DNA of 64,000 bases from contig CBDDCK010000005.1 in NCBI GenBank assembly GCA_965225855.1, positions 864,001-928,000 on the forward strand, written 5' to 3'. This stretch comes from Spirochaetia bacterium. GTDB lineage: Bacteria > Spirochaetota > Spirochaetia > SP-2023. The notes below the pieces were generated by a model. That model was given only the letters and a program-made list of their open reading frames with translations. It did not search any database and was not told the DNA's origin. Both the position numbers and the translations under genes were made by a program. Of this stretch, positions 26,626 to 43,556 are shown piece after piece; position 1 is the first letter of the stretch; each line of letters starts with the position of its first letter.

Positions 26626-28770
26626 TTACCGAATTATAACTTGAATACTAGTGGTTGGGTCTTCTGGACTACCAGGTACAAATTCTGCTTTTGCTTCCAG
26701 GTTGTATTCACCATTATTATCACTACTACCAGCCTTAACCAGTATAGCATTGGCTTTGGCTTTTACATTACCGCTTAAAGTAATCTTTAAGAATGTTGCA
26801 TCTGCTTCAGAACCTGTGGCTCTGTTTGCACCTAAAGTTGAGTGCCGGGGTAATGTGAATCTCTTACTACCATCACCGGATACAAGCGTCAATTTGCTAA
26901 AGTCCCATTCTGCAACTGTTTCCGGTAACCTGCTACCACTAATATATAACACACCTGTACGAGTTATATATGATACGTTGTTGATCTGGCTTACGTAGCC
27001 ACTAACGGTAATAGGATTAGTTGTGTCTGCTGCGCTACTACCAATTACAAATCCTGCTGCTGCTTCAAGGTTGTATGCACCAGCATCATCACTTTTACCA
27101 CCCTTAACCAGTATCTTATTGACTTCCGCTTTTACATTACCGCTTAAAGTAATCCTTAAGCCTGTTGCACTTACAAAAGAACCTGTGGCTGTGTTTTCAC
27201 CTGCAGTTGCGTGCCGGGGTAATGGGTATCTCTTTCTACCATCACCGGATACAAGCGTCAATTTGCTAAAGTCCCATCCTGCAATTGATGTCGGTAACTT
27301 GCTACCAATAATATATAACTCGCCTGTATTAACATCGTAGGTTGCTTTGTCGATTCTGACTACATACCCACTAACGGTAATAGGGTTATTGCTTGTGTCT
27401 GCTGCGCTACTACCAATTACAAATCCTGCTGCTGCTTCAAGGTTGTATGCACCAGTATCATCACTATCACCATTCTTAACCAGTATAGCCTCGGCTTTCC
27501 TTTGTTCACTACCCCCTAAAGTAATCGTTAAGCTGGTTGTACTTGCTGCAGAACCTGTGGCAAAGTTTATAGTTGCATATCGGTAGTGTGCTCTTAATGT
27601 GTCACTCTTACGACCATTACCTGCGACAAACCTCAATTTCCTAAAGTCCCAGCCTGTAACTGTTTTCGGTAAATTGATACCTGTAATCACTAACACGCCT
27701 GTACCAGCATTGTAGGTTGCACGGGTAATTGCAGCTTCAGGCGACTGCTGATCTTCAGTTTCGGTCTTAGACTGCTGATCTTCGACTTCTTCGGTTTGTT
27801 CGGCTTCGGGTAGTTCAGGCGACTGCTGATCTTCAGTTTCGGTCTTAGACTGCTGATCTTCGACTTCTTCGGTTTGTTCGGCTTCGGGTAGTTCAGGCGA
27901 CTGCTGATCTTCAGTTTCGGTCTTAGACTGCTGATCTTCGACTTCTTCGGCTTGTTCGTCTTTAGGTTGCTTAGGCGACTGCTGATCTTCAGTTTCGGTC
28001 TTAGACTGCTGATCTTCGACTTCTTCGGCTTGTTCGTCTTTAGGTTGCTTAGGCGACTGCTGATCTTCAGTTTCGGTCTTAGACTGCTGATCTTCGACTT
28101 CTTCGGCTTGTTCGTCTTTAGGTTGCTTAGGCGACTGCTGATCTTCAGTTTCGGTCTTAGACTGCTGATCTTCGACTTCTTCGGCTTGTTCGTCTTTAGG
28201 TTGCTTAGGCGACTGCTCTTCGGCTTGTTCAGCTTCTTCAGTTTGCTTAGATGGCTGATTGTCATCGGATACTTTAGACTGCTTATTTTCGGGTACATTA
28301 CTAACGTCCAAGTCTTTAGGTGTATTTAAACCCGCCCAAGCACCAGAGCCAACGCTAAGCAACCCTTTTTTTAGACCATCCTTATTCATACCGGGCTTGG
28401 CCTCAAGAGTAGCTTTATGTTGATCGGTAAGTTTCAGCCAAATCGCTGTGCCATCGTTTGCAATACGGTACTTACCTTGTTCAAGACCGTTACTATCTGG
28501 CCCAGTGGCTGGGTCATCTGCAGTATAGGAATTTAAGACTACGCCATATACTTTGATGGTTTGGATTTGCGCTTGGGTCGCAGTTGTAGGACTTAAGTGA
28601 GTACCTTGTACGGTTAACAGCGCCGTGCCAACATCGTAGCTTGCACTGGTGATTGCAGGCCCAGAAGACGGCCCAGAAGATCGATCATCGTCATCGGGTG
28701 GGGCGCAGGCAAAGGCCATAAAGACCAGTAGCCGGGCTAATGGCAATAAAAATAGTTTGAGCTTATACAT
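26626..28770 (-). CDS. Paralogous surface lipoprotein (1 type A domain, acidic tandem-repeat stalk, 3 type B domains)
   Basis: Near-identical signal/CAPPDDDD start and C-terminus to 12577-14958. Confidence 0.8.
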   Translation of the reverse strand: MYKLKLFLLPLARLLVFMAFACAPPDDDDRSSGPSSGPAITSASYDVGTALLTVQGTHLSPTTATQAQIQTIKVYGVVLNSYTADDPATGPDSNGLEQGKYRIANDGTAIWLKLTDQHKATLEAKPGMNKDGLKKGLLSVGSGAWAGLNTPKDLDVSNVPENKQSKVSDDNQPSKQTEEAEQAEEQSPKQPKDEQAEEVEDQQSKTETEDQQSPKQPKDEQAEEVEDQQSKTETEDQQSPKQPKDEQAEEVEDQQSKTETEDQQSPKQPKDEQAEEVEDQQSKTETEDQQSPELPEAEQTEEVEDQQSKTETEDQQSPELPEAEQTEEVEDQQSKTETEDQQSPEAAITRATYNAGTGVLVITGINLPKTVTGWDFRKLRFVAGNGRKSDTLRAHYRYATINFATGSAASTTSLTITLGGSEQRKAEAILVKNGDSDDTGAYNLEAAAGFVIGSSAADTSNNPITVSGYVVRIDKATYDVNTGELYIIGSKLPTSIAGWDFSKLTLVSGDGRKRYPLPRHATAGENTATGSFVSATGLRITLSGNVKAEVNKILVKGGKSDDAGAYNLEAAAGFVIGSSAADTTNPITVSGYVSQINNVSYITRTGVLYISGSRLPETVAEWDFSKLTLVSGDGSKRFTLPRHSTLGANRATGSEADATFLKITLSGNVKAKANAILVKAGSSDNNGEYNLEAKAEFVPGSPEDPTTSIQVIIR
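27739..28216 (-). repeat. 78-bp (26-aa) intragenic tandem repeat, six copies
   Basis: QQSPKQPKDEQAEEVEDQQSKTETED x4 and QQSPELPEAEQTEEVEDQQSKTETED x2. Confidence 0.92.
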
Positions 28771-29021
28771 AAGCAATACCTCCAAAAATGGCTTGAGATT
28801 GACAAAACCCATACGGGCTATTGTATAGTGCCCTATTTTGTGAGGGGGGGTGTTGCGTCAAGGCCCATACAAGCTTTTTGTAAGCTTTTTACAAGTTTTT
28901 TTGTGCTTTTTTTATGTTTTAGTGTTGTTTGGGTACTTTAGCTTGGGCTATATGGGCTTCTGGGTATTTAGCTGGGGCTCTTCAAGCAAACAACTTTGGC
29001 TATACAGTGTTGATCGGGTTT

Positions 29022-29257
29022 GTTGGAAAATCCCTAGGTTGCCAATCAAAAAAGCTAGTAAGGTTTTCAGTCAAAACCTTACTAGCTTTTTCAGAAACCT
29101 TATTAGCTTTTTGAGACCGTGGCCCGTTACCATGATATTTTGATACTTGATGCGATATTGTTGCCCAATTACTGCCGACAACCCATATGCCGAAAAACAA
29201 AAATTTTTTACCTTTTTATTTTGGAAAGTAAGCCAATTTGTACCTTCCATTTGTCCC
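29022..29257. repeat. Dispersed repeat, copy 1 (direct repeat of 43348-43556), containing a 19-bp palindrome
   Basis: GTTGGAAAATCCC...GGCCCGTTACCATGATATTTTGATACTTGATGC...CCGAAAAACAAAAATTTTTTAC shared with the second copy. Confidence 0.88.
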
Positions 29258-29523
29258 AAAAAAATCCCGAGTTATCGCGTCTTATCCCGTAAGTTATCAT
29301 GTCCTCTTTCAATTCTCTGAGGGCTGGAAAAAAACCGTCATTCTGGAAATTAAAAAATTGTAGTTGTCTCTATTCTGCAAAACTATCATTTCGTAGCAAG
29401 TTTACCTTTGCTGTGCTTTTATCCATTTTCAGAAATATTTTTTCAAAAGGAGTTGGAATATTTTTATCAAAGGATTATAATAAGTTCAGTCAGATGCCAA
29501 AGTTATTTGGTAGGAGATAAAAT

Positions 29524-30560: not shown

Positions 30561-31949
30561 ATGGACGCAAATTTATTTCAAATTATTTTAGGCTTAGCTG
30601 TAGAGATTATTGCTTTAGTGCTGTTTGTTGTTTTTTCACGGGTACATGCTTTTCCTGCTTTAATTATTGCCGCCATCATAGCAGGTACTATAGGAGGTTA
30701 TGGCTTCCTTCCCACATTAGATGCCATAAAGAAAGGATTTGGAGGCACATTAGGAAGCATAGGAATTATTATTGGGTTTGGTGTAATAATGGGAACATTA
30801 TTTGAAATCTCGGGCGCAGCAAAGAGAATGGCAATGTTTTTTCTTAAAATTTTTGGTAAAGGAAGAGAGGAATACGCATTAGCCGTGACGGGCTTTGTCG
30901 TTTCTATTCCTATTTTTTGTGATTCTGCTTTCATTATTTTGTCATCCTTGGCAAAAGCTATTGCGCGCAACACAGGAAAAAGCCTGACTACCCTAGGCGT
31001 TGCCCTGGCTGCAGGATTAGTGGTTACCCATACTATTGTGCCACCAACACCAGGACCGTTATTAGTGTTATCTAATTTTGATATTGAAATTGGAACATTC
31101 TTAATTTGGTCATTATTATTTTCTATTCCCATTGTGCTTGTATCTGTATTGTATTCTCAGTATATCGGGAAAAAGGTATTTCGTCTTCCAGCACTGCAAG
31201 GAGATGGTTTTATCGATGCTCGTTACTCTGAAGATGTTCAGAAGAAAGCATTCATTACTGATACAGAAAAACTTCCTTCTACTTTTATGTCCTTTCTGCC
31301 TATAATGCTTCCATTGTTTCTTATTTTTTTAAGCACACTTTTTAATGCACTTGGCTTAAAGGCAAACTCAGAAGCGCCTTTATACCAGTTTATACACAGC
31401 CTTGGAAACCCCATTGTAGCAGTAGGTTTGGGGCTTCTGGTTGGCCTTTTTACACTTACAAGAGGTATAGAAAAGCGCAAAGTGTTACATGCATCTGATG
31501 AAGCAATAAAACAAGCAGGTATTATAGTGTTTGTAACAGGAGGAGGAGGTGCTCTTGGTCAGGTGCTTCGAGATAGCGGTGCAGGTCAAATAATTGCTGA
31601 GGCGCTGGTAAATACCAATATTCCTATCGTTCTGCTGCCTATCATTATTGCCTCTTTAGTACGATTTCTACAAGGTTCGGGCACCGTATCGCTTATTACT
31701 TCTTCGTCTATTGTAGCTCCGATAATATTAAGCGGAGATATTCCTATCTCACCTGTTATTGCAGCCCTTGGGTGCTGTGTAGGTGGCCTCTTTTTTGCGT
31801 ATTTTAATGATAGTTATTTTTGGGTAGTAACTCGCAGCATAGGCATTAAGGAAACAAAAGATCAAATGCGTGTTTGGACCAGTACTACAATGGTAGCTTG
31901 GGCTGTGGGCGTGCTAATATTACTTCCACTCAGTCTTTTTGTAAGATAG
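30561..31949 (+). CDS. GntP family sugar-acid permease
   Basis: GFGGTLG-IG, SIPIFCDS, VPPTPGP, QGSGTV, NDSYFWVV. Confidence 0.9.
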   Translation: MDANLFQIILGLAVEIIALVLFVVFSRVHAFPALIIAAIIAGTIGGYGFLPTLDAIKKGFGGTLGSIGIIIGFGVIMGTLFEISGAAKRMAMFFLKIFGKGREEYALAVTGFVVSIPIFCDSAFIILSSLAKAIARNTGKSLTTLGVALAAGLVVTHTIVPPTPGPLLVLSNFDIEIGTFLIWSLLFSIPIVLVSVLYSQYIGKKVFRLPALQGDGFIDARYSEDVQKKAFITDTEKLPSTFMSFLPIMLPLFLIFLSTLFNALGLKANSEAPLYQFIHSLGNPIVAVGLGLLVGLFTLTRGIEKRKVLHASDEAIKQAGIIVFVTGGGGALGQVLRDSGAGQIIAEALVNTNIPIVLLPIIIASLVRFLQGSGTVSLITSSSIVAPIILSGDIPISPVIAALGCCVGGLFFAYFNDSYFWVVTRSIGIKETKDQMRVWTSTTMVAWAVGVLILLPLSLFVR

Positions 31950-32202
31950 TACGGAGCTGCGCAGATACCCTGAAGGCGCACGGTAAAAAAATACGCCAAT
32001 CATCGCGACCACAGCCCCATTTTTATGCTAAGTGCTTCGCTCCAAAATGCTAACAAAAAGCTTGCCATTAGTTATACTTGATCGTCCAACAAAACTATAG
32101 TATAATTATCGAAAAATCTTAGTGATTCTTCATCGGTTATACTTGATCGTCCAACAAAACGGGAATTATGTATAAAAGGGTACTAAAATAAATTGTGAAA
32201 AA

Positions 32203-33141
32203 ATGACAATAGTAGTTGACAATAAATATACAAAAATGTACTCTATAAATATGGAAAATTCAATAATAGATTTATTAGATACATTCAAAGATGACAAAGC
32301 ATGTGAGCAGTATTTTCTTGAAAAGAGGTTTGCCAATGGTGTATGTTGCTTATATTGTAAACATGATAAAGTATATAAAATACAAGGCGTCAATAAATGC
32401 CAGAGATATAAATGCGCCAGATGCAAGAAACGATTTAGTGCGCTTACAGGTACTATTTTTGAGAGCACCAAGTTAGGATTGCGAAAGTGGTTTTTAGCAT
32501 TTCATTTAATACAAAATTCAAGTAAAGGAATTAGCAGCATACAATTATCAAAACACCTAAAAATAACCCAACGTACAGCGTGGTTTATTTTACACAGATT
32601 TAGAGAAGTGGCAGAAGATAAGTTTCAGATGGTTAGTGGAAGTGTAGAAATCGATGAAACATTTATAGGCGGAAAAGAAGGCAATAAGCATGCAAGTAAA
32701 AAGCTTGGGTATCATGGAACAGAAGGTAAAACTGCAGTTATGGGCGCAATATCACGGCAAGACAAGCAAGTAGTAGCGTCTCCTGTAAAAGAAGTATCGT
32801 ATAGCTCTGTAGAAATATTTAGGAAGCATAATATAGCAAAAGGAAGTATAATCTACTCTGATCAATGCAAAGCCTATCGTGGGCAGTCTGATTTTAAAGT
32901 CCATCATAGTCTGAAAGAATTTGTTAGGGATGGCCATATTCATACCAACTGTATCGAGAGCTTTTGGGCGATACTAAAAAGAGGGTATATCGGTATCTAT
33001 CACTGGTGGAGTGTTAAGCACTTACACAGATATATCAATGAATTTACTTTTAGATTTAATCATAAACAAATATCTTTAGCAACACTGCTGGAATATACCG
33101 TCAATAAAAGACTGAAATATAGAGAGCTTACTGATGGCTAA
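32203..33141 (+). CDS. IS1595-family (ISXO2-like) DDE transposase
   Basis: Zn ribbon CLYC...CARC, GISSIQL HTH, VEIDETFIGGK, YSD, HTNCIESFW, HLHRYINEFTFRFN; start may be 32251. Confidence 0.93.
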   Translation: MTIVVDNKYTKMYSINMENSIIDLLDTFKDDKACEQYFLEKRFANGVCCLYCKHDKVYKIQGVNKCQRYKCARCKKRFSALTGTIFESTKLGLRKWFLAFHLIQNSSKGISSIQLSKHLKITQRTAWFILHRFREVAEDKFQMVSGSVEIDETFIGGKEGNKHASKKLGYHGTEGKTAVMGAISRQDKQVVASPVKEVSYSSVEIFRKHNIAKGSIIYSDQCKAYRGQSDFKVHHSLKEFVRDGHIHTNCIESFWAILKRGYIGIYHWWSVKHLHRYINEFTFRFNHKQISLATLLEYTVNKRLKYRELTDG

Positions 33142-33292
33142 AAAACAACAAAGATTCAAAATAAACATGTCTTTCAATGATTTCTTGAATCAAGTTATCG
33201 ATAAGGCCGATATACAATCAGGCAAAGACAAAGAAGTTATTACGACCAAAGATAATAGCAAAATTACTTTACACAAAAGCTTGCCAAAATGA
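33134..33292 (+). CDS. 52-aa IS passenger protein (below the ORF-track cutoff)
   Basis: MAKKQQRFKINMSFNDFLNQVIDKADIQ...LPK; overlaps the transposase stop, and its TGA overlaps the MTase ATG (ATGA). Confidence 0.6.
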   Translation: MAKKQQRFKINMSFNDFLNQVIDKADIQSGKDKEVITTKDNSKITLHKSLPK

Positions 33293-34804
33293 GAATCAAT
33301 CATCCAATAAACCCTCATAATTGGCGGAATCTATTGTATAGAGCCGATTGTAAGTATGCTCTACAACATTTAATCAGCAATCAAGTAACAGTAGACTTAA
33401 TTTATTTAGACCCACCGTTTAACTCAAACAGAGTCTATAATATGCTCTATTCACAAAATAAAAACAATCACGGCGCAAGCCAAAAAGCTTTCCACGATAT
33501 GTGGACAATTACCAGCCAAACACGTGAAGTTTGTTTAGCTTTTCAAGATAGAATGAAAAGTGAACAAGAAATATCACCTATTGTCAAATCTTTGTTGGAA
33601 ACTTGGACTAATTCTTTGATAAACGGGGGGAAGAAGTAATCAGATGATAGTATATCTGATTTATATGGTTGAAAGACTGATATTAATGAGAAAAGTGCTA
33701 AAGGACACAGGAAGCATCTATCTACATTGCGACCCTACAGCCAGCCACTACCTTAAAATAATTATGGACGGGATATTTGGCCATGATAATTTTGTAAATG
33801 AAATTATTTGGAGTTATAAAAGTGGTGGGGCATCTAAAAAAAGATGGGCAAAGAAACATGATGTAATTTTAATGTATTCTAAAACAAAAGATAACTTTGT
33901 ATTTTGTACACAATACTATAAAAGGTACTTATTAAGAGATGAACAGACAGGCAAAGAACTTGGCAAAGACCCTAGAGAGCATGTTAAATATTATAAAGAC
34001 GGGATAGGAACTTATCGAATAAACATTGAAAGAGATATTTGGGAAATTCCTATTATTAGTCCTAATAGCAAAACTGAAAGAATGGGCTACCCCACACAGA
34101 AACCGCTAGCATTATTAGATAAAATTATCAAAGCTTCATGTCCCGAAGACGGCACTGTATTAGACCCATTTTGTGGTTGTGGCACGACTTTAGAGAGTGC
34201 TATTATCAATAGAAAAAATTGGATAGGTGTGGATATAAGCAATAATGCTGTAGAAGTAATGCAAAATAGAATAGCCAATACCCATACAGGAGCAAAATAT
34301 GATTTAATACACGGAAACCCTGAAAACTTAATGGATTATCAAAAACTCAATGCCTATGACAAACAAGAGTGGTTAATCAATACTATTGGTGGCTTCCCCA
34401 ACCCTAAAAAGTCTGGCGATAGCGGAGTCGATGGTGATCTTACCGTACATGGCGGTTTTGATAAAACTGGTAGAGATATATGGCATAAGGTGATTTTTAG
34501 TGTAAAAACTGGCAATCAATGTGAGCCTAAATTTTTGAGAGAACTTATAGGAACAATGAAAATACATAATGCTACTTATGGGGGTTTGATACTGGATAAA
34601 GACCCAAGCGAAGCAATGCTTAAGACGATATATAACAGCAAAAAAATTACCTACCAATATGCCAAAGAATTGCCACCACAATATTTTGATACCTTACAGA
34701 TATTGACAAGCCAACAAATAATAGATGGTGCTAAATTTGACTTACCCCCTACCATAAATAAAATTAAAAAATATCGGCAAGTCCCTACACTAGATTTTGG
34801 TTAG
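33289..34804 (+). pseudogene. Beta-class N4/N6 DNA methyltransferase with a C-terminal Mrr-like/PD-(D/E)XK domain, frameshifted at a G6 tract
   Basis: DPPF in 33289-33639; GSIYLHCD, YPTQKP, DPFCGCGT and D-GVDG...SVK in 33644-34804; removing one G at 33625-33630 fuses them (INGGRSNQMIVYL), giving about 504 aa. Confidence 0.85.
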
Positions 34805-37800
34805 TCCGCTTTTATACATAATTACCCAGCAAAACTATAGTATAATAAAATATATTTTATGATTGGGTTCGCAACGGTTATACTTGATCGTCCAACAAAA
34901 CTATAGTATAATGGTAATGGTATCATCTAGTCTTATTGTCATGTTATACTTGATCGTCCAACAAAACTATAGTATAATTAACACAAGCGTTTAGAACAAT
35001 GACAACCGGTTATACTTGATCGTCCAACAAAACTATAGTATAATTAATCTTACAAGTGGCTTATCTGTAAGTAAGTTATACTTGATCGTCCAACAAAACT
35101 ATAGTATAATGCTAATTCGCAAGGGCAAAGTGGCATGACTGTTATACTTGATCGTCCAACAAAACTATAGTATAATTTAGACTGTATAGAGCAATATACG
35201 CAAGAGGTTATACTTGATCGTCCAACAAAACTATAGTATAATGCCCTTGCGTGTGGCCTTGGTGCGTAAGATGTTATACTTGATCGTCCAACAAAACTAT
35301 AGTATAATACAAAACAACGGAAGCCCTCGGCTTATTTGGTTATACTTGATCGTCCAACAAAACTATAGTATAATGCATTGGCTGCCCCAGCATTAGCAGC
35401 CAATGTTATACTTGATCGTCCAACAAAACTATAGTATAATATGTCTTGCCAAGCCCTTGCTGACGAAATAGTTATACTTGATCGTCCAACAAAACTATAG
35501 TATAATACAAAACAACGGAAGCCCTCGGCTTATTTGGTTATACTTGATCGTCCAACAAAACTATAGTATAATGCATTGGCTGCCCCAGCATTAGCAGCCA
35601 ATGTTATACTTGATCGTCCAACAAAACTATAGTATAATTCTAATATCTGCGGTATTAGGAATATTCCAGTTATACTTGATCGTCCAACAAAACTATAGTA
35701 TAATAACTGTAATTGCTTAGAAGTGAGGATATTTGTTATACTTGATCGTCCAACAAAACTATAGTATAATTAAACAAGTCAAAAAAATCCCCCCTTACTA
35801 GTTATACTTGATCGTCCAACAAAACTATAGTATAATAAAATATCGATATGATTATCGAAATGCTTAGTTATACTTGATCGTCCAACAAAACTATAGTATA
35901 ATTTTATGCAAGGACGAGCAAGGCTTGCTTATGTTATACTTGATCGTCCAACAAAACTATAGTATAATCATAGTCATCTTGGGGAGCCGTAACTTGAAGT
36001 TATACTTGATCGTCCAACAAAACTATAGTATAATCATTATGACGAGGTAATGTTGTGAAATTAAGTTATACTTGATCGTCCAACAAAACTATAGTATAAT
36101 TACTTTCATTTTTGATACTCCTAAAAAAAAGTTATACTTGATCGTCCAACAAAACTATAGTATAATTTAGCCCCCGATTCCAAGAGCAGCTTAACCGTTA
36201 TACTTGATCGTCCAACAAAACTATAGTATAATCAAACAGCAACCGTTGACAAAAGATCATTTGTTATACTTGATCGTCCAACAAAACTATAGTATAATAA
36301 TTGGGAAAAAATCTTATTCGAATATATAGTTATACTTGATCGTCCAACAAAACTATAGTATAATACCCATGTCACCCGTGAGTAATACAGAGTGGTTATA
36401 CTTGATCGTCCAACAAAACTATAGTATAATCAATAAATTCAGGTCGTTGCAAACGAGCATGTTATACTTGATCGTCCAACAAAACTATAGTATAATGACA
36501 GCTTGCTAAACGCACAAATTGCTCTTGTTATACTTGATCGTCCAACAAAACTATAGTATAATAGCCCAATAATGATAGAAAATCATTCTTCCGTTATACT
36601 TGATCGTCCAACAAAACTATAGTATAATTACCAGAAGTTTGAAGAACTTCCGAAATAAGTTATACTTGATCGTCCAACAAAACTATAGTATAATAGCAAC
36701 AGTCGCACCAACTTGAGCGGTAGAGTTATACTTGATCGTCCAACAAAACTATAGTATAATAAAAACTTAAAAAGAAGATAGGAGAAAAAAGTTATACTTG
36801 ATCGTCCAACAAAACTATAGTATAATGAGTCGAACCTTGGCAAAATTAACAAAAAAGTTATACTTGATCGTCCAACAAAACTATAGTATAATAAAACTTA
36901 AAAAGAAGATAGGAGGAAGAAAGTTATACTTGATCGTCCAACAAAACTATAGTATAATATCAAATGTAATATATCATCTCGCAAACTTGTTATACTTGAT
37001 CGTCCAACAAAACTATAGTATAATATCCCCTCAGAAAAATTCTGGGAATTATGGGTTATACTTGATCGTCCAACAAAACTATAGTATAATATCTTGCCTG
37101 AAACTAAAGAAGCCATGCAAGTTATACTTGATCGTCCAACAAAACTATAGTATAATTATTTTCAGTGGTTACCGTGTAACCATAAGGTTATACTTGATCG
37201 TCCAACAAAACTATAGTATAATAATAGCCAAATTCTGAACCTTCTATTTCTTGTTATACTTGATCGTCCAACAAAACTATAGTATAATTAAAGCTTAGTA
37301 AGCTTATCTAATCTATTAGTTATACTTGATCGTCCAACAAAACTATAGTATAATTCTTCCCAGCTTTACTGCCAAGGGTATTTTGTTATACTTGATCGTC
37401 CAACAAAACTATAGTATAATAAGCAGCCGATAATATACAGTAGAAGATTAGTTATACTTGATCGTCCAACAAAACTATAGTATAATCAAAAAACTTAAAA
37501 AGAAGATAGGAAAAAAGTTATACTTGATCGTCCAACAAAACTATAGTATAATGATTGGTAAATTTTTCCATCCATCAGGAGCGTTATACTTGATCGTCCA
37601 ACAAAACTATAGTATAATAGTCCTCATTATGACTAGTCTGATGAGTAGGTTATACTTGATCGTCCAACAAAACTATAGTATAATAAAATATCGTGCAAAC
37701 TACATACACGGTAAGTTATACTTGATCGTCCAACAAAACTATAGTATAATTTTTTTCTTTAGCACTTCTATCTATGTTTGTTATACTTGATCGTCCAACA

Positions 37801-38553
37801 AAACTATAGTATAATAACGCTCACCAAGACCATTGGAACAAGAAGGTTATACTTGATCGTCCAACAAAACTATAGTATAATATATAAAATCTGCTGAAAA
37901 CACTCAAATCCGTTATACTTGATCGTCCAACAAAACTATAGTATAATAAATGGAAAACAAAGGTGCTTACTTTTCCAGTTATACTTGATCGTCCAACAAA
38001 ACTATAGTATAATAAATTCAGTTGATCATCACTTAGCTCTGCCGTTATACTTGATCGTCCAACAAAACTATAGTATAATCAATTGGATAACCACAGATGA
38101 AGGAAGAAAGTTATACTTGATCGTCCAACAAAACTATAGTATAATTACGCAACTTATGGCCATTATATTGAAATTGTTATACTTGATCGTCCAACAAAAC
38201 TATAGTATAATAGTTGGCCAGCCAAAGCTTTGCGTGGTTTTGTTATACTTGATCGTCCAACAAAACTATAGTATAATAATACTCGTTGTAGATAAAATTA
38301 TACGCTTGTTATACTTGATCGTCCAACAAAACTATAGTATAATTCACCAACATTAGCACCAGTATAACCACTAGTTATACTTGATCGTCCAACAAAACTA
38401 TAGTATAATAAATAATGCACATATGCAAATATATCATGTGTTATACTTGATCGTCCAACAAAACTATAGTATAATACGACCTAGCAGGTCAAGACATAGC
38501 AACATGTTATACTTGATCGTCCAACAAAACTATAGTATAATTGTGTCTGGCTT

Positions 38554-38590
38554 AAATAGTGGCAAAGTAAGTCTTTGCCACTATTTTTTT
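38554..38590 (+). terminator. Intrinsic terminator after the last CRISPR repeat
   Basis: AAATAGTGGCAAAG-TAAGT-CTTTGCCACTATTT followed by a T run. Confidence 0.8.
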
Positions 38591-38616
38591 CGTCCAAAAA
38601 GCAGATTATCAGGCGC

Positions 38617-38985
38617 TTAAAATAATAAATAACAGCCATTTTTTTCTAAATCTTGTTGTTCATTTCCAACTAAATTCGGGCCGATAAAGTTTTCGGCCAT
38701 CGTGTACTGCCTATCGGTAATGTAAAATATGCTAATTTGCCCTTCGGGGGGAATGCCGTATTTTATCCTCTGGGCTACGATCTTCGCTGCGGCCAAATTG
38801 CGGCACGGCTTAATGTAGACGGAAAATTGCTTCATGCAAAAACCGTTGTCCAGCAAATGGTTGCGGAACTGGGTGGCCAAGCGCATTTGTCTCTTAGTCT
38901 GTACGGGCAGGTCAAACATGCAGAGCAACCACATCATGGTCCAGCCCGTGGGCCGCCTATACTTGCTCTTTTTTTGTGTCAGCAT
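38617..38985 (-). CDS. cas2: CRISPR-associated endonuclease Cas2 (type II)
   Basis: MW--CMFDLPV-TK...FRNHLLDNGF-MKQFSVY...ITDRQY. Confidence 0.95.
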   Translation of the reverse strand: MLTQKKSKYRRPTGWTMMWLLCMFDLPVQTKRQMRLATQFRNHLLDNGFCMKQFSVYIKPCRNLAAAKIVAQRIKYGIPPEGQISIFYITDRQYTMAENFIGPNLVGNEQQDLEKNGCYLLF

Positions 38986-41900
38986 GGCAAAAGACCTTGT
39001 GCTTGCGCTTCATTTTGCCAAACGGGCTTAGCTCGACCTTGCGGGCTCCGTGCTCGCGGAAAAAGCTTCCCCCCTTTACTAACAAAGCTGGGGCCAAGTA
39101 CTTTTGTTTCTTAGCCAGCACACTGTTGCGCCCATCGTGGGCCAGGCAAAAGCCGATTGCATTATCTTTAACTGTCAACTTGCATACCACCACTAAGCAA
39201 CGTTCTGCGCTGACCAAACTTCGATATTCTTCGGGCGTATTCAATTCCAGCAAGTCCCCTTGGTGTAGGGAATACTGCAACTGTAGGCCTTTTTGCCGCC
39301 ACTGCGTCACAAAATTTTTGTCGTTGGCGTCAAAGCGGCGAATCACTTCGATAATGCTATCGCCCTTTATATCCAAGACGATATCCGCGCGGTGGTTATT
39401 GCCGCTTTGATAATATAGCCCGTGCTTGGGCACGGTTATTAGAGATTTGTTACACTCAAAGTAATCTATCTTATGTGCGATCGGCTTTGCGCCGTCTGCC
39501 CTGTTGTGTTGGGCCAGCGCGATGGCTTTAGCCATAATGTGATTTTCGCCAATCTCTTTAACTTTTTTGCCCTCGGCCTTTTGCTCTTCCCGCTCTTGCT
39601 CTAATTGCTCCCGGGCCCTATCCCAGTTGGCCGCGATGCCTTGCTGGGCATCGGCCAAGTCTTGCCGCGCTTTGGCGATGCGCTCGTGCCACTCTGGGGG
39701 AAATTTACAAAACTGGCCGACATCTTTGCGCAAATCGGCTTGCGTTTTGATCAGCTCTTCTACCTTGCGCTTATAGACCGTCAAGGGGTCGCCCGCCGCA
39801 GGTTCTTCTTCTTTCTTTTGGAAAAACTGGCCGTATTGCTTCTCTTGAGCCTTGGTTTGGGCAATATAGCCCAGCACTATGCGCCCCGTCTCTTTGTGCA
39901 ATTGGCCCTGGGGGCTGTGCTCGGCCTTGTGAGAAACTTTTACTTCATCGAGTACGGCAACAACTTGCTCGACAAAATCTGCGCCGCTTGCGTAGCAGGA
40001 GGTAAGGGGGCACAGCTCTCTCTTCGGCAGCTTTCTGCCAATTTTGTCTGCCCGCGTAATCTTCTGTATTAAGCTGCGGGTAGACAGCGCGACAACGATG
40101 GCATCTAGCGCGTGGTGGCGATGGTCCATGCGCGGCTTGTCCAGCCATTCGGGGTTGCACACTAAATCTTTTTTATACCAACCCTTCTCGTCTACTGGAT
40201 GATAACTAACTTCTTCGGTATCCCTCTTTATCCAATGCACCTCGTTTACGGTGTTTTCGGGCAACTTCTGGCGTATTTTCTCGTCGGTAACGGGCAATTT
40301 TAGGTATCTGGGTATGTGAAACCCCATCAATTGATACTCTAGGCCTAGCAAATTCCATATGCGGCGCAGCTTGGCTGTACACTGGCCGCGTATGGGCACA
40401 ATGCGCACCGAATGGTCCCCACTTTTACTTGCGTCCGCAGGGGAAGTCGCCCTCCCTAGCTCTTGGGCCGCAATCCTTTGTGGGGCCAAGATCGCTCGCA
40501 AATAGCGCAGGGCCAGCTTGGCCATATAGCGAGTGTCCGTCAAATAGCGGCTCGTGCCATCCATATCCCCGTCACTTTCAAAAATTTCTTGGGCATCTGC
40601 TTCAAAGCGCCAAGCCTTATTTTCAGGCAAGCTTTCGGCCGCCTCTAAAATGGCTTTCAGCTTTTCGGGGCTGCGGCTCTTCTGCAAATACGGATACGGA
40701 TAGCTATCGCCCTTGTCTCGGTTGTCGTTGCGGCTGATCAAACATAGGTTTGCCGGCGTATCGCTGCCGCCCCTGGCTTGCGGTATCAAATGCTCTATTT
40801 CAAAGCCCTCAAAGCTTTGCGGTATATTTTTGGTGCTATCAAAGGCGTCCTTCCACTTCTGTTCCTTGGCCAATTTGTACTTTAAGATATTTGTCCCATT
40901 TACTACCATATTGCGCTCGACTAAGTATTTGCGGGCCTCATCGTTGATTTCTCGGTTTTTCTTTTGCTGCTTTTCTATCTCCTTCCTCTTATTTTTTGAA
41001 CGGCCCACATCGCGGCCAACTTCCACGTGAATGGCCTGCGGCCGGCCGTAAATGCGCACAATATCGTTTACCACTAGGCGCAACTGATTGAGCATCATGT
41101 GCACCGCCGGGTTGGCCAATTTGCCATACTTTTGCTCTTCGGGGTTTAGGCTCGAATTGCGCTCAGCACTCCACTGGGCTACCGGTTGGGTATCTCTGGT
41201 CAAGATTTGCCCATAGTAAGGCAAGGCTTCCCATTGGGCCTGCTGGTCACGTGCAGCCAGGTCGGCAGCGCGATAGCGCGGGTCTTCCTTGGCCAATTGG
41301 TCGGTAATTGCGCGCTGTGTCGTGGCCTGCTCGGCGCACGCAAAACCTTTGAGCACGGCCTTTGTGGCCGTCTTGCCTAAATTGCCGCGACCCTTGGGAA
41401 ACAAATGGAGCACTTCTGCGGCCTCCTCTGTGTTTTCTAGGCACAGCCGCCGCTTTAAATTTTGCAAGAGCTGCTCTTCGGTATACAAACGCCTCTGAAC
41501 ATCTTCGGGGTTTACTGGGTTGGCAATAAAGTCTACCAGTTCTTCCAAATCCCCTTCACAGAGCTTCATACCCTGAAACTTTTCGTTCGCATACAGATAG
41601 GGCTCAATGCCTTTCTTATCGGCTAGCACAATCTTGCTACTCTTGTCCAAGCCCAAGGCTTCTTGAATTTTCGTTGGCGTTGCCTTTTGGCCCTTCATTA
41701 GCAAAGTTTCGATGACGATATTTATTTGTTTTATCTCTAACAATGACTTTTCTAACGATGACTTTTTTGTCTCAAAAGTTAGGGCTGGCTCATCCCATAA
41801 CTCTAACGATGACTTTTTTGTCCCCCAGCGGCGGATGCGAATATTGTGCGCCGCTTCGCAAATGCGGTGCCTTTCGGCTAGCGGGTGGGCCTTGGGCAGG

Positions 41901-42667
41901 CGCTCTTCTTCGGAGATAAAGATGCAATTGCCCGTGGCATAGGGCATGGGCGGGTGCTCAAAAAATAGTATATCATAAATTTTTTGCCTTAAAGACTCGT
42001 CTTGCAAGGGGGCAAAGTGCGGCGCTTGGCAAGCCCAAATCTGGCGAAATTCCTCTCGTACCAAATAGCGGGGAATCGCATAGTCCACCTCTTGGGCCTG
42101 CTTGCGCTGGCGCACTATCTTTTTATTTTTCAGGCGTTCAAAGAAATATTGGCCAAGCGTCTGTAGGCCCTTCTCTTTTAGCCGTTGTGGCAGAACTTTA
42201 TAGGGGTTATCGGGGTTATCACGCACTTCTTTGCCCTCTTTTTGGCTCTTTTCTTTCAGCTCTTGTTCAGCGGAAATAAAATCTGCGCCGCGGTGTTTGG
42301 CCAAATGCATCAAAATGCGCCCCAATTGATGGCTACTCTCTAGCTTTTTTCGCACGGCCGCGTCTCGCAAATAATACACACATTGCTTGCGCAATTGCTT
42401 AGTGCCTGCTGCAATTTTACCTTGAGGGCAGCAATTCCACAGGCCCGCCTCGTACAAGGCCCTACCCAGGAGTTCTAAGCGCTTTTTCGTGCGCACAGTA
42501 TTCGTGCGCGCAGTGCGCTGCAAACGCCTAGCCTCCGCCCCTTCACTAACCTCAAATATCCTAGCACCCGCATCGCAAATCTTCACGGCCTTATTGCACT
42601 CATCTAATTCCACGACTGCCGAGCCGATCGAAGAGACACCTAAATCTAAACCCAAGCGATAACGCAT
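38957..42667 (-). CDS. cas9: Type II-C-like Cas9 (~1236 aa)
   Basis: RuvC-I LGLDLGVSSIG; HLAKHRG; NPAVH; RuvC-II IHVEVGRD; HNH EHLIP...N...N-DKG; DTRY; RuvC-III HRHHALDAIVVA; alternative starts at 42679/42685. Confidence 0.96.
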   Translation of the reverse strand: MRYRLGLDLGVSSIGSAVVELDECNKAVKICDAGARIFEVSEGAEARRLQRTARTNTVRTKKRLELLGRALYEAGLWNCCPQGKIAAGTKQLRKQCVYYLRDAAVRKKLESSHQLGRILMHLAKHRGADFISAEQELKEKSQKEGKEVRDNPDNPYKVLPQRLKEKGLQTLGQYFFERLKNKKIVRQRKQAQEVDYAIPRYLVREEFRQIWACQAPHFAPLQDESLRQKIYDILFFEHPPMPYATGNCIFISEEERLPKAHPLAERHRICEAAHNIRIRRWGTKKSSLELWDEPALTFETKKSSLEKSLLEIKQINIVIETLLMKGQKATPTKIQEALGLDKSSKIVLADKKGIEPYLYANEKFQGMKLCEGDLEELVDFIANPVNPEDVQRRLYTEEQLLQNLKRRLCLENTEEAAEVLHLFPKGRGNLGKTATKAVLKGFACAEQATTQRAITDQLAKEDPRYRAADLAARDQQAQWEALPYYGQILTRDTQPVAQWSAERNSSLNPEEQKYGKLANPAVHMMLNQLRLVVNDIVRIYGRPQAIHVEVGRDVGRSKNKRKEIEKQQKKNREINDEARKYLVERNMVVNGTNILKYKLAKEQKWKDAFDSTKNIPQSFEGFEIEHLIPQARGGSDTPANLCLISRNDNRDKGDSYPYPYLQKSRSPEKLKAILEAAESLPENKAWRFEADAQEIFESDGDMDGTSRYLTDTRYMAKLALRYLRAILAPQRIAAQELGRATSPADASKSGDHSVRIVPIRGQCTAKLRRIWNLLGLEYQLMGFHIPRYLKLPVTDEKIRQKLPENTVNEVHWIKRDTEEVSYHPVDEKGWYKKDLVCNPEWLDKPRMDHRHHALDAIVVALSTRSLIQKITRADKIGRKLPKRELCPLTSCYASGADFVEQVVAVLDEVKVSHKAEHSPQGQLHKETGRIVLGYIAQTKAQEKQYGQFFQKKEEEPAAGDPLTVYKRKVEELIKTQADLRKDVGQFCKFPPEWHERIAKARQDLADAQQGIAANWDRAREQLEQEREEQKAEGKKVKEIGENHIMAKAIALAQHNRADGAKPIAHKIDYFECNKSLITVPKHGLYYQSGNNHRADIVLDIKGDSIIEVIRRFDANDKNFVTQWRQKGLQLQYSLHQGDLLELNTPEEYRSLVSAERCLVVVCKLTVKDNAIGFCLAHDGRNSVLAKKQKYLAPALLVKGGSFFREHGARKVELSPFGKMKRKHKVFCHADTKKEQV

Positions 42668-42742
42668 ATATCTCTCCATGCCCACATTTTCGCCCTTCCC
42701 CTCAATGCGGTAAAAAATAATAATTATTTTTCTATTTTACAC

Positions 42743-42771
42743 TTGACAGCAAAAAGTGCAAGTATTATAGT
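42743..42771 (+). promoter_or_regulatory. Sigma70-type promoter for the tracrRNA
   Basis: TTGACA (42743)-17 bp-TATAGT (42766). Confidence 0.75.
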
Positions 42772-42777
42772 GGCTTT

Positions 42778-42910
42778 TGTATTGGGCCGGGCACTCTCAT
42801 ACTATAGTTTTGTTGGACGATCAAGACTATTATAATAAAGGTCATTGCGATTATTTCGCTTTGTGCCCAAAAATGCGGGCTCTGTTTTTGGAAACAGAGC
42901 CCTTTATCTT
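42778..42910 (+). ncRNA. tracrRNA (divergent from cas9)
   Basis: 27-nt perfect anti-repeat 42799-42825, 5-nt bulge, TATAAT lower stem 42831-42836; hairpin GCGA-TTATT-TCGC; terminator GGGCTCTGTTT/AAACAGAGCCC 42877-42902 plus Ts. Confidence 0.92.
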
Positions 42911-43061
42911 TGCCTAGGCTCTCCCCATCTTTTTCTATCCCACCCGTTGGCCCAGCTGTGGCTATCTTCCTAAGGAGCTGTGCGCATCCCTCTGCAATTT
43001 ATAAGTATCCTAAGTATCCCTTAAAGCTGTGCTGTCGCTGTGGCCAACGGTTAGGGCTATT

Positions 43062-43347
43062 TCAGCGGTGCTTTTGTCTTGGCGTGCTGTCTTGGCGTGC
43101 CAAGTTTTGAATTTGCGCAATTTCGTATGCGTCTAGCGGGCTGTGGCTTTTGCGGTAGCGTTCTTGTAAGGCTTGGCATTCTAGGCTGGCTTGGTGATAC
43201 CATTCATAAGCATTTAAGGCTTTGTCTTTGTATTCTGAAACTTCCCGCTCCAGCTTGTAAAAGCCCGGCTTGCCAATCGATGGCAAAACTTCGTGGGTTA
43301 CCCAGCGCTTAAAGCTTTGGCCTCTGGTTTGGTATTGCCACAGTCTC
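43062..43347 (-). pseudogene. BRO-N/antirepressor remnant fused to the dispersed repeat
   Basis: FKRWVTHEVLPSI-K-G-Y is the end motif of BRO-N; the upstream part of ORF 43062-43550 is translated repeat DNA. Confidence 0.7.
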
Positions 43348-43556
43348 GTTGGAAAATCCCCAGGTTGCAAATCAAAAAAGCTAGTAAGGTTTTGACTGAA
43401 AACCTTATTAGCTTTTTTTGGAAACCTTACTAGCTTTTTGAGACTACGGCCCGTTACCATGATATTTTGATACTTGATGCCATATTGTTGCCCAATTACT
43501 GCCGACAATGACCCATAGGCCGAAAAACAAAAATTTTTTACTTGTTCCATTTGTGG
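43348..43556. repeat. Dispersed repeat, copy 2 (direct repeat of 29022-29257)
   Basis: High identity to copy 1 with small indels and an inverted palindrome loop. Confidence 0.88.

What the first reader, a model, noticed from the sequence alone, without database searches (positions are those of the whole stretch)
32136..34846. Cargo-carrying IS1595 element inserted precisely inside a CRISPR repeat
Seen: repeat 2 breaks after nt 25 (…CCAACAAAAC|GGGAATT…) and resumes 2.67 kb later (…TTACC|CAGCAAAACTATAGTATAAT). The insert has 26-bp TIRs and an 8-9-bp target duplication with one mismatch. It encodes a transposase, a 52-aa protein and an MTase-nuclease fusion whose stop lies inside the right TIR. 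Known: IS1595 members make ~8-bp duplications and can carry passenger genes. Inference: an R-M-like defence or epigenetic module has been delivered into a CRISPR array at its presumed oldest end, stranding one repeat-spacer unit. Intact repeat 1 has a promoter motif pointing into the transposase operon, so the array may drive IS and cargo expression.
Basis: partly seen in the sequence, partly recalled or inferred. Interest (0 to 1): 0.75.

Follow-up and report, generated by a model that had tools for sequence, protein, structure and literature searches.

The report
Jumping gene with slippage-switched DNA methylase
A small jumping gene sits inside a CRISPR repeat, likely by chance, and its DNA-methylase cargo gene is out of frame at a run of G's; related jumping genes often carry long, variable runs in the same kind of cargo, so these elements likely spread methylases with a random on/off switch.

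Summary
The insertion is real: a 2,666-bp IS1595 element (32161-34826, ends 23/26 alike, duplication 8 of 9 bp) splits repeat 2 of a type II CRISPR array. A roughly 97% identical sibling in the read sets shows G13 (out of frame) and G14 (in frame). Among bounded relatives, G/C runs of 9 or more occur in 7 of 13 methyltransferase-carrying elements and 0 of 60 others; 13 copies in one genome differ only in the run (G9-G16). Repeat targeting is not supported: relatives insert at unrelated AT-rich 8-mers and 1 of 100 lies in an array. Spacer 1 keeps its promoter and 25 bp of tracrRNA pairing, so it is probably not stranded. An IS inside a type II-C array and IS1595 cargo carriers are published; a slippage-switched methylase as IS1595 cargo was not found in my paper searches, but this scan noted it twice before on other DNA. 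Switching, methylation and expression were not observed.

The parts
32071..32106 (+). CRISPR repeat 1 (intact, 36 nt), holds TTGATC-17-TATAAT promoter-like motif at 32078-32106
32107..32135 (+). spacer 1 (29 nt)
32136..32160 (+). 5' part (nt 1-25) of interrupted repeat 2; includes left target copy CAACAAAAC at 32152-32160; still pairs with the tracrRNA over 25 bp in a duplex calculation
32161..34826 (+). IS1595-family element with cargo, 2,666 bp, single copy in this genome
32161..32186 (+). left terminal inverted repeat (26 nt)
32216..32244 (+). element's own promoter-like site (TTGACA-17-TACTCT), inferred; would start near the ATG at 32251
   Evidence: read; TTGAC in 44 of 66 bounded loci; weak -10, not listed
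32203..33141 (+). IS1595 DDE transposase (312 aa from first ATG; real start may be 32251)
33134..33292 (+). 52-aa ORF overlapping transposase stop and methyltransferase start; no family
33289..33639 (+). N-terminal piece (116 aa, DPPF catalytic motif) of the split beta-class amino-methyltransferase
33625..33630 (+). G6 run at the frameshift; G13 and G14 in contigs of runs X2 and X3
33644..34804 (+). C-terminal piece (386 aa): rest of N6/N4 methyltransferase plus Mrr-like PD-(D/E)xK-fold domain
34801..34826 (-). right terminal inverted repeat (23 of 26 nt match the left)
34827..34846 (+). right target copy CAGCAAAAC (34827-34835) and 3' part of repeat 2 (keeps -10, lost -35)
34847..38541 (+). 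rest of the array: spacers 2-57 and 56 exact repeats
38617..38985 (-). cas2
38957..42685 (-). cas9 (1,242 aa); no cas1 between it and cas2
42799..42836 (+). tracrRNA anti-repeat (27-nt exact match at 42799-42825 plus lower stem)

Best explanation
A 2,666-bp IS1595-family element interrupts the second repeat of a type II CRISPR array, likely by landing in AT-rich neutral DNA rather than by seeking the repeat, and its methyltransferase-nuclease cargo gene is frameshifted at a G run that reads longer in sibling contigs, so the cargo is likely a slippage ON/OFF gene that is OFF in this copy. Shown: ends, duplication, split gene, frame arithmetic (G5, 8, 11, 14 give 504-507 aa; G6 and G13 stop at 116 and 121 aa), run-length alleles, and the enrichment of long G/C runs in methyltransferase-carrying relatives. 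Inferred: replication slippage flips the gene in copies with runs of 9 or more; ON cells methylate an unknown site (probably adenine) and may cut unmethylated or foreign DNA; the switch lets an incoming element arrive without cutting or re-methylating every new host and gives hosts a mixed population. In this copy the run is 6, below the published slippage threshold of 9, so it is probably near-locked OFF and the element is a quiet passenger. The array is probably little harmed: each repeat carries its own promoter motif, spacer 1 keeps promoter and tracrRNA handle, and only spacer 2 loses its -35 box.
For: Split gene, with most close homologues near 500 aa; the homologue spacing at the break equals three glycines, i.e. 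G8. G13 and G14 alleles in X2 and X3 contigs; an X4 contig from another study ends at 33629, inside the run. G/C runs of 9 or more in 7 of 13 distinct methyltransferase-carrying bounded IS1595 against 0 of 60 without (Fisher p 1e-6; 0.18 expected at the flank rate); 5 of 12 against 0 of 60 when related L034/L248 are merged and L213 is dropped (p 6e-5). The runs sit at different places (after the start codon, inside the methylase domain, between methylase and nuclease) and most shift the frame, which points to repeated origin. 13 copies of one IS1595 with a 36% identical cargo in G058 agree over 2,445 nt and differ only in the run, G9 to G16. Targets: 84 of 100 bounded loci have perfect 8-bp duplications, 83% AT, at best 6 of 8 like this target; 1 of 100 lies in an array; arrays are 1.4% of this genome and about 7% of its non-ORF DNA. 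The sibling's right flank is not a CRISPR repeat. Threshold of 9 from PMC5909438; poly-G switching of an R-M enzyme from PMC4889913 (passages).
Against: The run in this copy is only G6, and the genome has 295 G6/C6 runs, so alone it is unremarkable. That G13/G14 belong to the sibling and not to this locus is inferred from their dropping out at 93% likeness; the sibling is not assembled and its host is unknown. G13 versus G14, and G14 versus G16 at what looks like one G058 locus assembled twice (L179, L191), could be homopolymer read error. None of the 119 protein homologues shows a long glycine run at this position (at most three), and 0 of 80 metagenome loci and 0 of 7 phylum loci of this methylase have a run. 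6 of 13 methylase-carrying elements have no run, and about nine further methylase-adjacent IS1595 loci that I could not bound (L012, L039, L042, L045, L192, L196, L199, L099, L100) have none at the gene and were not counted. 4 of 44 methylase genes without a detected IS1595 also have runs, so the trait is not exclusive. The G058 set was picked because its open frames varied, and there the run sits at the transposase-stop/methylase-start overlap, not inside the methylase. Elements are related, so the p values overstate. No switching, methylation or RNA data.
Confidence: 0.68

Rival explanations
1. The cargo here is simply a decaying pseudogene: a 2-nt loss in a short G run, and the long runs in relatives are neutral expansion in unselected cargo or long-read homopolymer error.
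For: G6 is common in this genome; single copy, one mismatch in the duplication and three in the ends suggest age; most runs in relatives are out of frame; no switching seen.
Against: Neutral expansion or read error should also hit non-methylase cargo, yet 0 of 60 such elements (180 kb) have a run of 9 or more against 7 of 13 (45 kb); read error does not make G13 from G6 or a G9-G16 spread among copies otherwise identical over 2,445 nt; both pieces are otherwise intact with catalytic residues conserved.
Confidence: 0.15
2. The gene works as two chains: the 116-aa piece and the separately started 386-aa piece assemble into an active enzyme, so G6 is not an OFF state.
For: The second ORF has its own ATG 5 nt after the first stop with a purine-rich stretch upstream; homologue P0002 (66%) starts at the same methionine and four others start within six residues; the break is in a loop between helices. 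Split methylases are known (recalled, e.g. M.AquI).
Against: Most homologues are single chains; the short homologues may be gene-calling after other breaks, their DNA could not be fetched; runs in relatives sit at places without a restart codon.
Confidence: 0.09
3. The element targets CRISPR repeats and uses repeat promoters to express an active restriction-modification module.
For: A second, unrelated IS1595 with methylase cargo sits at a repeat end in another array (L027); repeat 1's promoter motif points into the element with no terminator between; an earlier scan note reports a third case (e1-5824076, unchecked).
Against: 99 of 100 bounded loci and all 13 G058 copies are outside arrays; duplications show no consensus; sibling flank is not a repeat; in L027 the repeat is of another type and the site differs; the cargo is out of frame here; the element has its own promoter-like site.
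Confidence: 0.06
4. The right junction is a mis-join of the assembly, placing an element from elsewhere into the array.
For: No listed contig bridges the right junction; the only listed right-end contigs run into another flank; the duplication is imperfect.
Against: Left junction bridged with no difference; the two junctions restore one exact repeat, which a mis-join would not; short contigs between repeats are missing all along the array.
Confidence: 0.02

Closest known systems
IS1595-family transporter IS with passenger genes (tISCpe8, MTnSag1; PMC5704250 passages; Siguier, Gagnevin and Chandler 2009 seen only as a reference entry)
   Same: IS1595 DDE transposase, about 25-bp inverted ends, short target duplication, cargo between the ends.
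   Different: Cargo is a DNA methyltransferase-nuclease with a frameshifting G run, not a resistance gene; duplication here is 8 of 9 bp instead of a perfect 8.
IS256 inside the type II-C array of Flavobacterium psychrophilum CN46 (PMC10309648 passages)
   Same: An IS splits a type II-C array whose repeats carry promoters; in that paper both parts were transcribed and interference worked.
   Different: Other IS family, no cargo described, cas1 present in that locus.
Cj0031, poly-G phase-variable Type IIG R-M enzyme of Campylobacter jejuni (PMC4889913 passages), and Type III mod phasevarions such as modH (PMC5909438 passages)
   Same: A G run in the reading frame of a methyltransferase or methylase-nuclease sets ON or OFF.
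   Different: Here the gene is IS cargo, a beta-class methylase with a C-terminal Mrr-like domain; this copy's run (6) is below the 9-nt criterion; switching, methylation and regulon are untested.
R-M genes flanked by inverted repeats with 8-bp duplication (PMC2853133 passages)
   Same: R-M genes moving as transposon-like units with 26-bp inverted ends and 8-bp duplication.
   Different: This unit has a full transposase ORF; the passages read do not describe slippage runs in such units.

Membership tests
IS1595 family (transporter IS) | IS1595 DDE transposase with N-terminal zinc ribbon | tested here: met
   PF12762 E 1e-34, PF12760 E 3e-7; NF033547 176 bits, cut-off 75
IS1595 family (transporter IS) | terminal inverted repeats of about 25 bp | tested here: met
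   23 of 26 nt; GGGAATTAT-type ends shared with relatives; the subgroup label ISNwi1-like is recalled
IS1595 family (transporter IS) | 8-bp target duplication | tested here: inconclusive
   8 of 9 with symmetric ends, or 7 of 8 with one extra base at the right end; perfect 8 in 84 of 100 relatives
IS1595 family (transporter IS) | passenger genes inside the ends | tested here: met
   52-aa ORF and split methylase-nuclease
IS1595 family (transporter IS) | transposition activity | not testable with these tools
   single copy here; a sibling at another flank suggests recent movement in the lineage
CRISPR-repeat-targeting mobile element | relatives insert preferentially in CRISPR repeats | tested here: not met
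   1 of 100 bounded loci, 0 of 13 G058 copies; no target consensus
Phase-variable DNA methyltransferase (phasevarion) | mononucleotide run of 9 or more in the reading frame (criterion of PMC5909438) | tested here: not met
   this copy has G6; met by the G13/G14 alleles in read sets and by relatives
Phase-variable DNA methyltransferase (phasevarion) | run length varies among near-identical copies and shifts the frame | tested here: met
   G6, G13, G14 for this cargo; G9-G16 in 13 otherwise identical G058 copies; part of the spread may be read error
Phase-variable DNA methyltransferase (phasevarion) | reversible switching, methylation change and altered gene expression | not testable with these tools
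   no raw reads, methylome or RNA run
Type IIG restriction-modification enzyme | one chain with N-terminal nuclease and gamma-class methylase (definition recalled) | tested here: not met
   beta-class methylase first (M.BceJIV Z 20.3, rmsd 3.0, 186 aligned), Mrr-like domain last (AspBHI Z 8.9, rmsd 3.5, 117 aligned)
Type IIG restriction-modification enzyme | DNA cleavage by the fused nuclease | not testable with these tools
   D259, D263, S286, K288 invariant in 73 of 73 and E300 in 71 of 73, but the usual acidic or Q position before K is S and Pfam's nearest label includes an 'inactive' family
Type II-C CRISPR-Cas locus | cas9, tracrRNA and repeat-borne promoter, no csn2 or cas4 in the operon | tested here: met
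Type II-C CRISPR-Cas locus | cas1 in the operon | tested here: not met
   cas9 overlaps cas2 directly; the only cas1 found is in another locus 220 kb away

The most novel reading that the evidence does not exclude
IS1595 transporter elements are vehicles for mobile phasevarions: across several phyla their methyltransferase(-nuclease) cargo has repeatedly and independently gained hypermutable G/C runs that switch the whole enzyme, only its nuclease half, or its coupling and fusion to the transposase, so one transposition event hands a new host a random epigenetic or restriction switch; this locus is a copy whose run shrank and locked OFF after landing in a CRISPR repeat.
Probability: 0.5. Interest if true: 0.7.

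Novelty: new variant of a known kind. Interest (0 to 1): 0.5.

Why it matters
Phase-variable methyltransferases are studied as fixed chromosomal loci, mostly in pathogens, and the survey that found them in environmental bacteria asks why they are there (PMC5909438 passages). If IS1595 cargo routinely carries the switch, it gives a route by which such switches spread between unrelated species and a reason for them: an R-M-like gene on a promiscuous element benefits from arriving OFF. The multi-copy G058 element makes this directly testable. The CRISPR insertion itself is a known kind of accident with probably small effect.

Tried and rejected
Other copies in this genome: none; not found in 40 relatives by DNA. 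Same repeat in three same-genus genomes, to get an empty site: not found. Sibling's right flank in five genomes: not found. Methylase in five close genomes at E 1e-20: not found with this query. Viral contigs: no transposase relative. No RNA holder listed. No empty-site joint in the contigs laid; right junction and most spacers have no cover, which proves nothing. Rfam at gathering score: no match over 31900-43100. 52-aa ORF: no Pfam or NCBIfam family, no significant match among 1,553 small ORFs of bounded elements (best E 0.03). Foldseek listed only methylases at E under 0.001; the nuclease fold came from the wide search. A hybrid promoter at the left junction was considered and rejected by eye (-35 kept, no good -10). 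Small runs X4, X5 were laid and hold sibling pieces only; I draw no habitat claim from them. Paper searches for the combination IS1595 plus slippage-switched methylase: searches listed nothing that describes it by title or abstract start (PMC6211672 holds the words but I saw only its listing); closed-access papers and supplements were not seen and could hold it.
Full report
OBSERVATION. The array repeat is GTTATACTTGATCGTCCAACAAAACTATAGTATAAT. The window has 57 exact copies plus one interrupted copy and 57 spacers. Repeat 2 stops after nt 25 at 32160 and resumes after a 2,666-bp insert whose ends match at 23 of 26 nt; the flanks are CAACAAAAC and CAGCAAAAC. The insert encodes an IS1595 transposase, a 52-aa ORF of no known family, and methyltransferase sequence. 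It is single-copy in the 2.7-Mb genome and was not found in 40 relatives. Contigs of two runs of one sample bridge the left junction with no difference; none listed bridges the right.

The cargo is two ORFs, 116 aa with the DPPF motif and 386 aa with the SAM-binding motif and a C-terminal domain, separated at a G6 run (33625-33630). Most of the best 120 homologues are single chains near 500 aa. Read through with X at the break, the junction aligns with no long gap, and the homologue spacing equals three glycines, i.e. G8. Runs of 5, 8, 11 or 14 give 504-507 aa; 6 and 13 stop at 116 and 121 aa. Run X1 has a contig identical to the window across the run; X2 and X3 also have contigs with 7 and 8 extra G's. 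These drop out at 93% likeness, while pieces of a roughly 97% identical cargo with another right flank appear in X2, X3 and in X4 from another study, where one contig ends inside the run. I infer a sibling element with G13/G14; its host is unknown and its flank was not found in five genomes.

THE CARGO PROTEIN. The model of the 386-aa piece (mean pLDDT 88) matches beta-class N6-adenine methylases over residues 1-220 (M.BceJIV Z 20.3, rmsd 3.0, 186 aligned; CcrM Z 19.9) and Mrr-like nucleases over about 225-365 (AspBHI Z 8.9, rmsd 3.5, 117 aligned; MspJI 8.7; LlaBIII 8.6). The atlas gives Mrr_cat / NA-iREase1 clusters at 0.94. D259, D263, S286 and K288 are invariant in 73 sequences and E300 is kept in 71. 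A serine at the acidic position with a displaced glutamate is found in some active enzymes such as Cfr10I (recalled), but activity is untested.

TARGETING. The genome scan kept 80 of 125 loci with transposase relatives; 65 could be bounded. From 28 of these genomes I listed IS1595 (150 of 252 matches shown) and methylases (150 of 490 shown) and fetched 100 regions by hand: 40 by transposase, 40 by methylase, 7 by adjacency or contig end, and 13 G058 copies chosen because their open frames varied. Leaving the G058 set aside, 100 loci were bounded (at least one fetched twice): 84 have a perfect 8-bp duplication, 83% AT, with no consensus and at best 6 of 8 matches to this target. One, L027, lies inside a CRISPR array of another repeat type, at the AT-rich repeat end. 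None of the 13 G058 copies does. This genome's three arrays are 1.4% of its DNA and about 7% of DNA outside long ORFs, so chance landing is enough. [quoted passage not shown]

EFFECT ON THE ARRAY. The anti-repeat at 42799-42836 pairs with the 5' end of the repeat, fixing transcription on the + strand towards cas2. The broken repeat keeps 25 bp of that duplex (-33.4 against -43.9 kcal/mol). Every intact repeat holds TTGATC-17-TATAAT (19 promoter-like sites in the region against 14.5 expected, so the motif counts by its place, not by number). Spacer 1 thus keeps promoter and handle; spacer 2 loses its -35 box. Read-through into the element is possible but the element has its own TTGACA, shared by 44 of 66 bounded loci. 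No RNA data exist here.

THE FAMILY PATTERN. The 100 bounded loci fall into 73 distinct elements. G/C runs of 9 or more occur in 7 of 13 with a methylase and 0 of 60 without (p 1e-6; 0.18 expected from 3 runs in 735 kb of flank). Positions differ: after the start codon (L027, two genes, one in frame and one out), inside the methylase domain (L056, L077/L087), between methylase and HNH nuclease (L025, L034, L248), and just upstream of the ATG (L213). Merging the related L034 and L248 and dropping L213 leaves 5 of 12 (p 6e-5). In G058, 13 copies with a cargo 36% identical to this one agree over 2,445 nt and differ only in the run: G9, 10, 10, 11 (five), 12, 13, 13, 14, 16. There the run decides whether the transposase stops on the methylase start codon (11, 14), fuses to it (9, 12) or runs into the third frame. 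Two of the 13 share flanks and are probably one locus assembled twice, reading G14 and G16. Against: 6 of 13 have no run; about nine unbounded methylase-adjacent loci have none at the gene and were left out; 4 of 44 methylase genes without a detected IS1595 in the same genomes have runs (p 0.001 against 7 of 13, but those were picked by best score, which favours intact genes); 0 of 80 metagenome loci and 0 of 7 phylum loci have one; related elements make all p values too small.

MECHANISM. Shown: structure of the element, split gene, alleles, family enrichment. Inferred: slippage in runs of 9 or more (criterion and rates from PMC5909438, passages) flips the cargo as in Cj0031 (PMC4889913, passages); ON cells methylate and perhaps restrict; this copy, at G6, is probably near-locked OFF. 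I put this at 0.68, ordinary decay at 0.15, a working two-chain enzyme at 0.09, repeat targeting with an active module at 0.06 and mis-assembly at 0.02.

KNOWN AND NEW. IS1595 cargo carriers (PMC5704250, passages), R-M genes in transposon-like units (PMC2853133, passages), ISs in arrays and poly-G methylase switches are each published. Their combination as a recurrent trait of IS1595 cargo was not found in searches (listings only; closed papers and supplements unseen). This scan noted single cases on other DNA before (e1-2982624, e1-2860535), which I saw after forming my reading and did not check at their loci; they are not independent support. Verdict: new variant of a known kind, interest 0.5; the CRISPR location is the ordinary part, the switchable cargo is the part worth testing.

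Noticed in passing
window 38617-42685; genome C5:676925-677905: This cas9-cas2 locus has no cas1. The only cas1 found in the genome sits in a second cas9-cas1-cas2 locus, yet the genome holds three large arrays with different repeats (57, 202 and 323 exact copies). One Cas1 may serve all three, or two arrays no longer grow.
   Followed up: partly
genome C5:1152750-1152785: A lone exact copy of this array's repeat, followed by a near copy of the hairpin that follows the array's last repeat, about 250 kb from the array; looks like an off-site repeat-plus-leader.
   Followed up: partly
window spacers 46 and 50; genome C4:45188-45216 and C5:1987510-1987539: Two spacers match the host genome exactly (29 of 29 and 30 of 30), although Cas9 appears by eye to keep its catalytic motifs; PAM unknown. 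Spacers 40 and 55 resemble sequence inside the other two arrays.
   Followed up: partly
genome C5:1065998-1074272: Two long tandem ORFs (1,175 and 1,568 aa) that look Cas12a-like by their N-termini (recalled, not scanned) lie beside the 20-kb array, with no cas1.
   Followed up: no
L027:2563-7425: A second IS1595 inside a CRISPR array (perfect 8-bp duplication at the repeat's 3' end), carrying methylase genes with G11 and G10 runs right after the start codon.
   Followed up: yes
L179-L191 (G058): In these 13 copies the run length decides between transposase-methylase fusion, translational coupling and uncoupling; only 3 of 13 have matching 8-bp duplications and some appear to have swapped flanks, suggesting recombination between copies.
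   Followed up: partly
window 29040-29260 and 43330-43550: A similar segment of about 200 nt (same short ORF motif, both on the - strand) occurs twice, bracketing the epimerase, GntP permease, array and cas9; it might mark the edges of an island.
   Followed up: no
genome-wide: The 386-aa piece has 20 other tblastn hits in this 2.7-Mb genome, many partial; none has a G/C run of 7 or more nearby.
   Followed up: partly
window 35273-35602: Two adjacent spacers are repeated three units later (spacers 9-10 equal 12-13), a sign of recombination between repeats near the insertion end.
   Followed up: no
window 26626-28812: 728-aa protein with 78-bp tandem acidic repeats and repeated beta-rich units; related repeats recur elsewhere on C5.
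   Followed up: no
window 32216-32253: The element's promoter-like site would start transcription at or next to the ATG at 32251, suggesting a leaderless transposase message (read).
   Followed up: no
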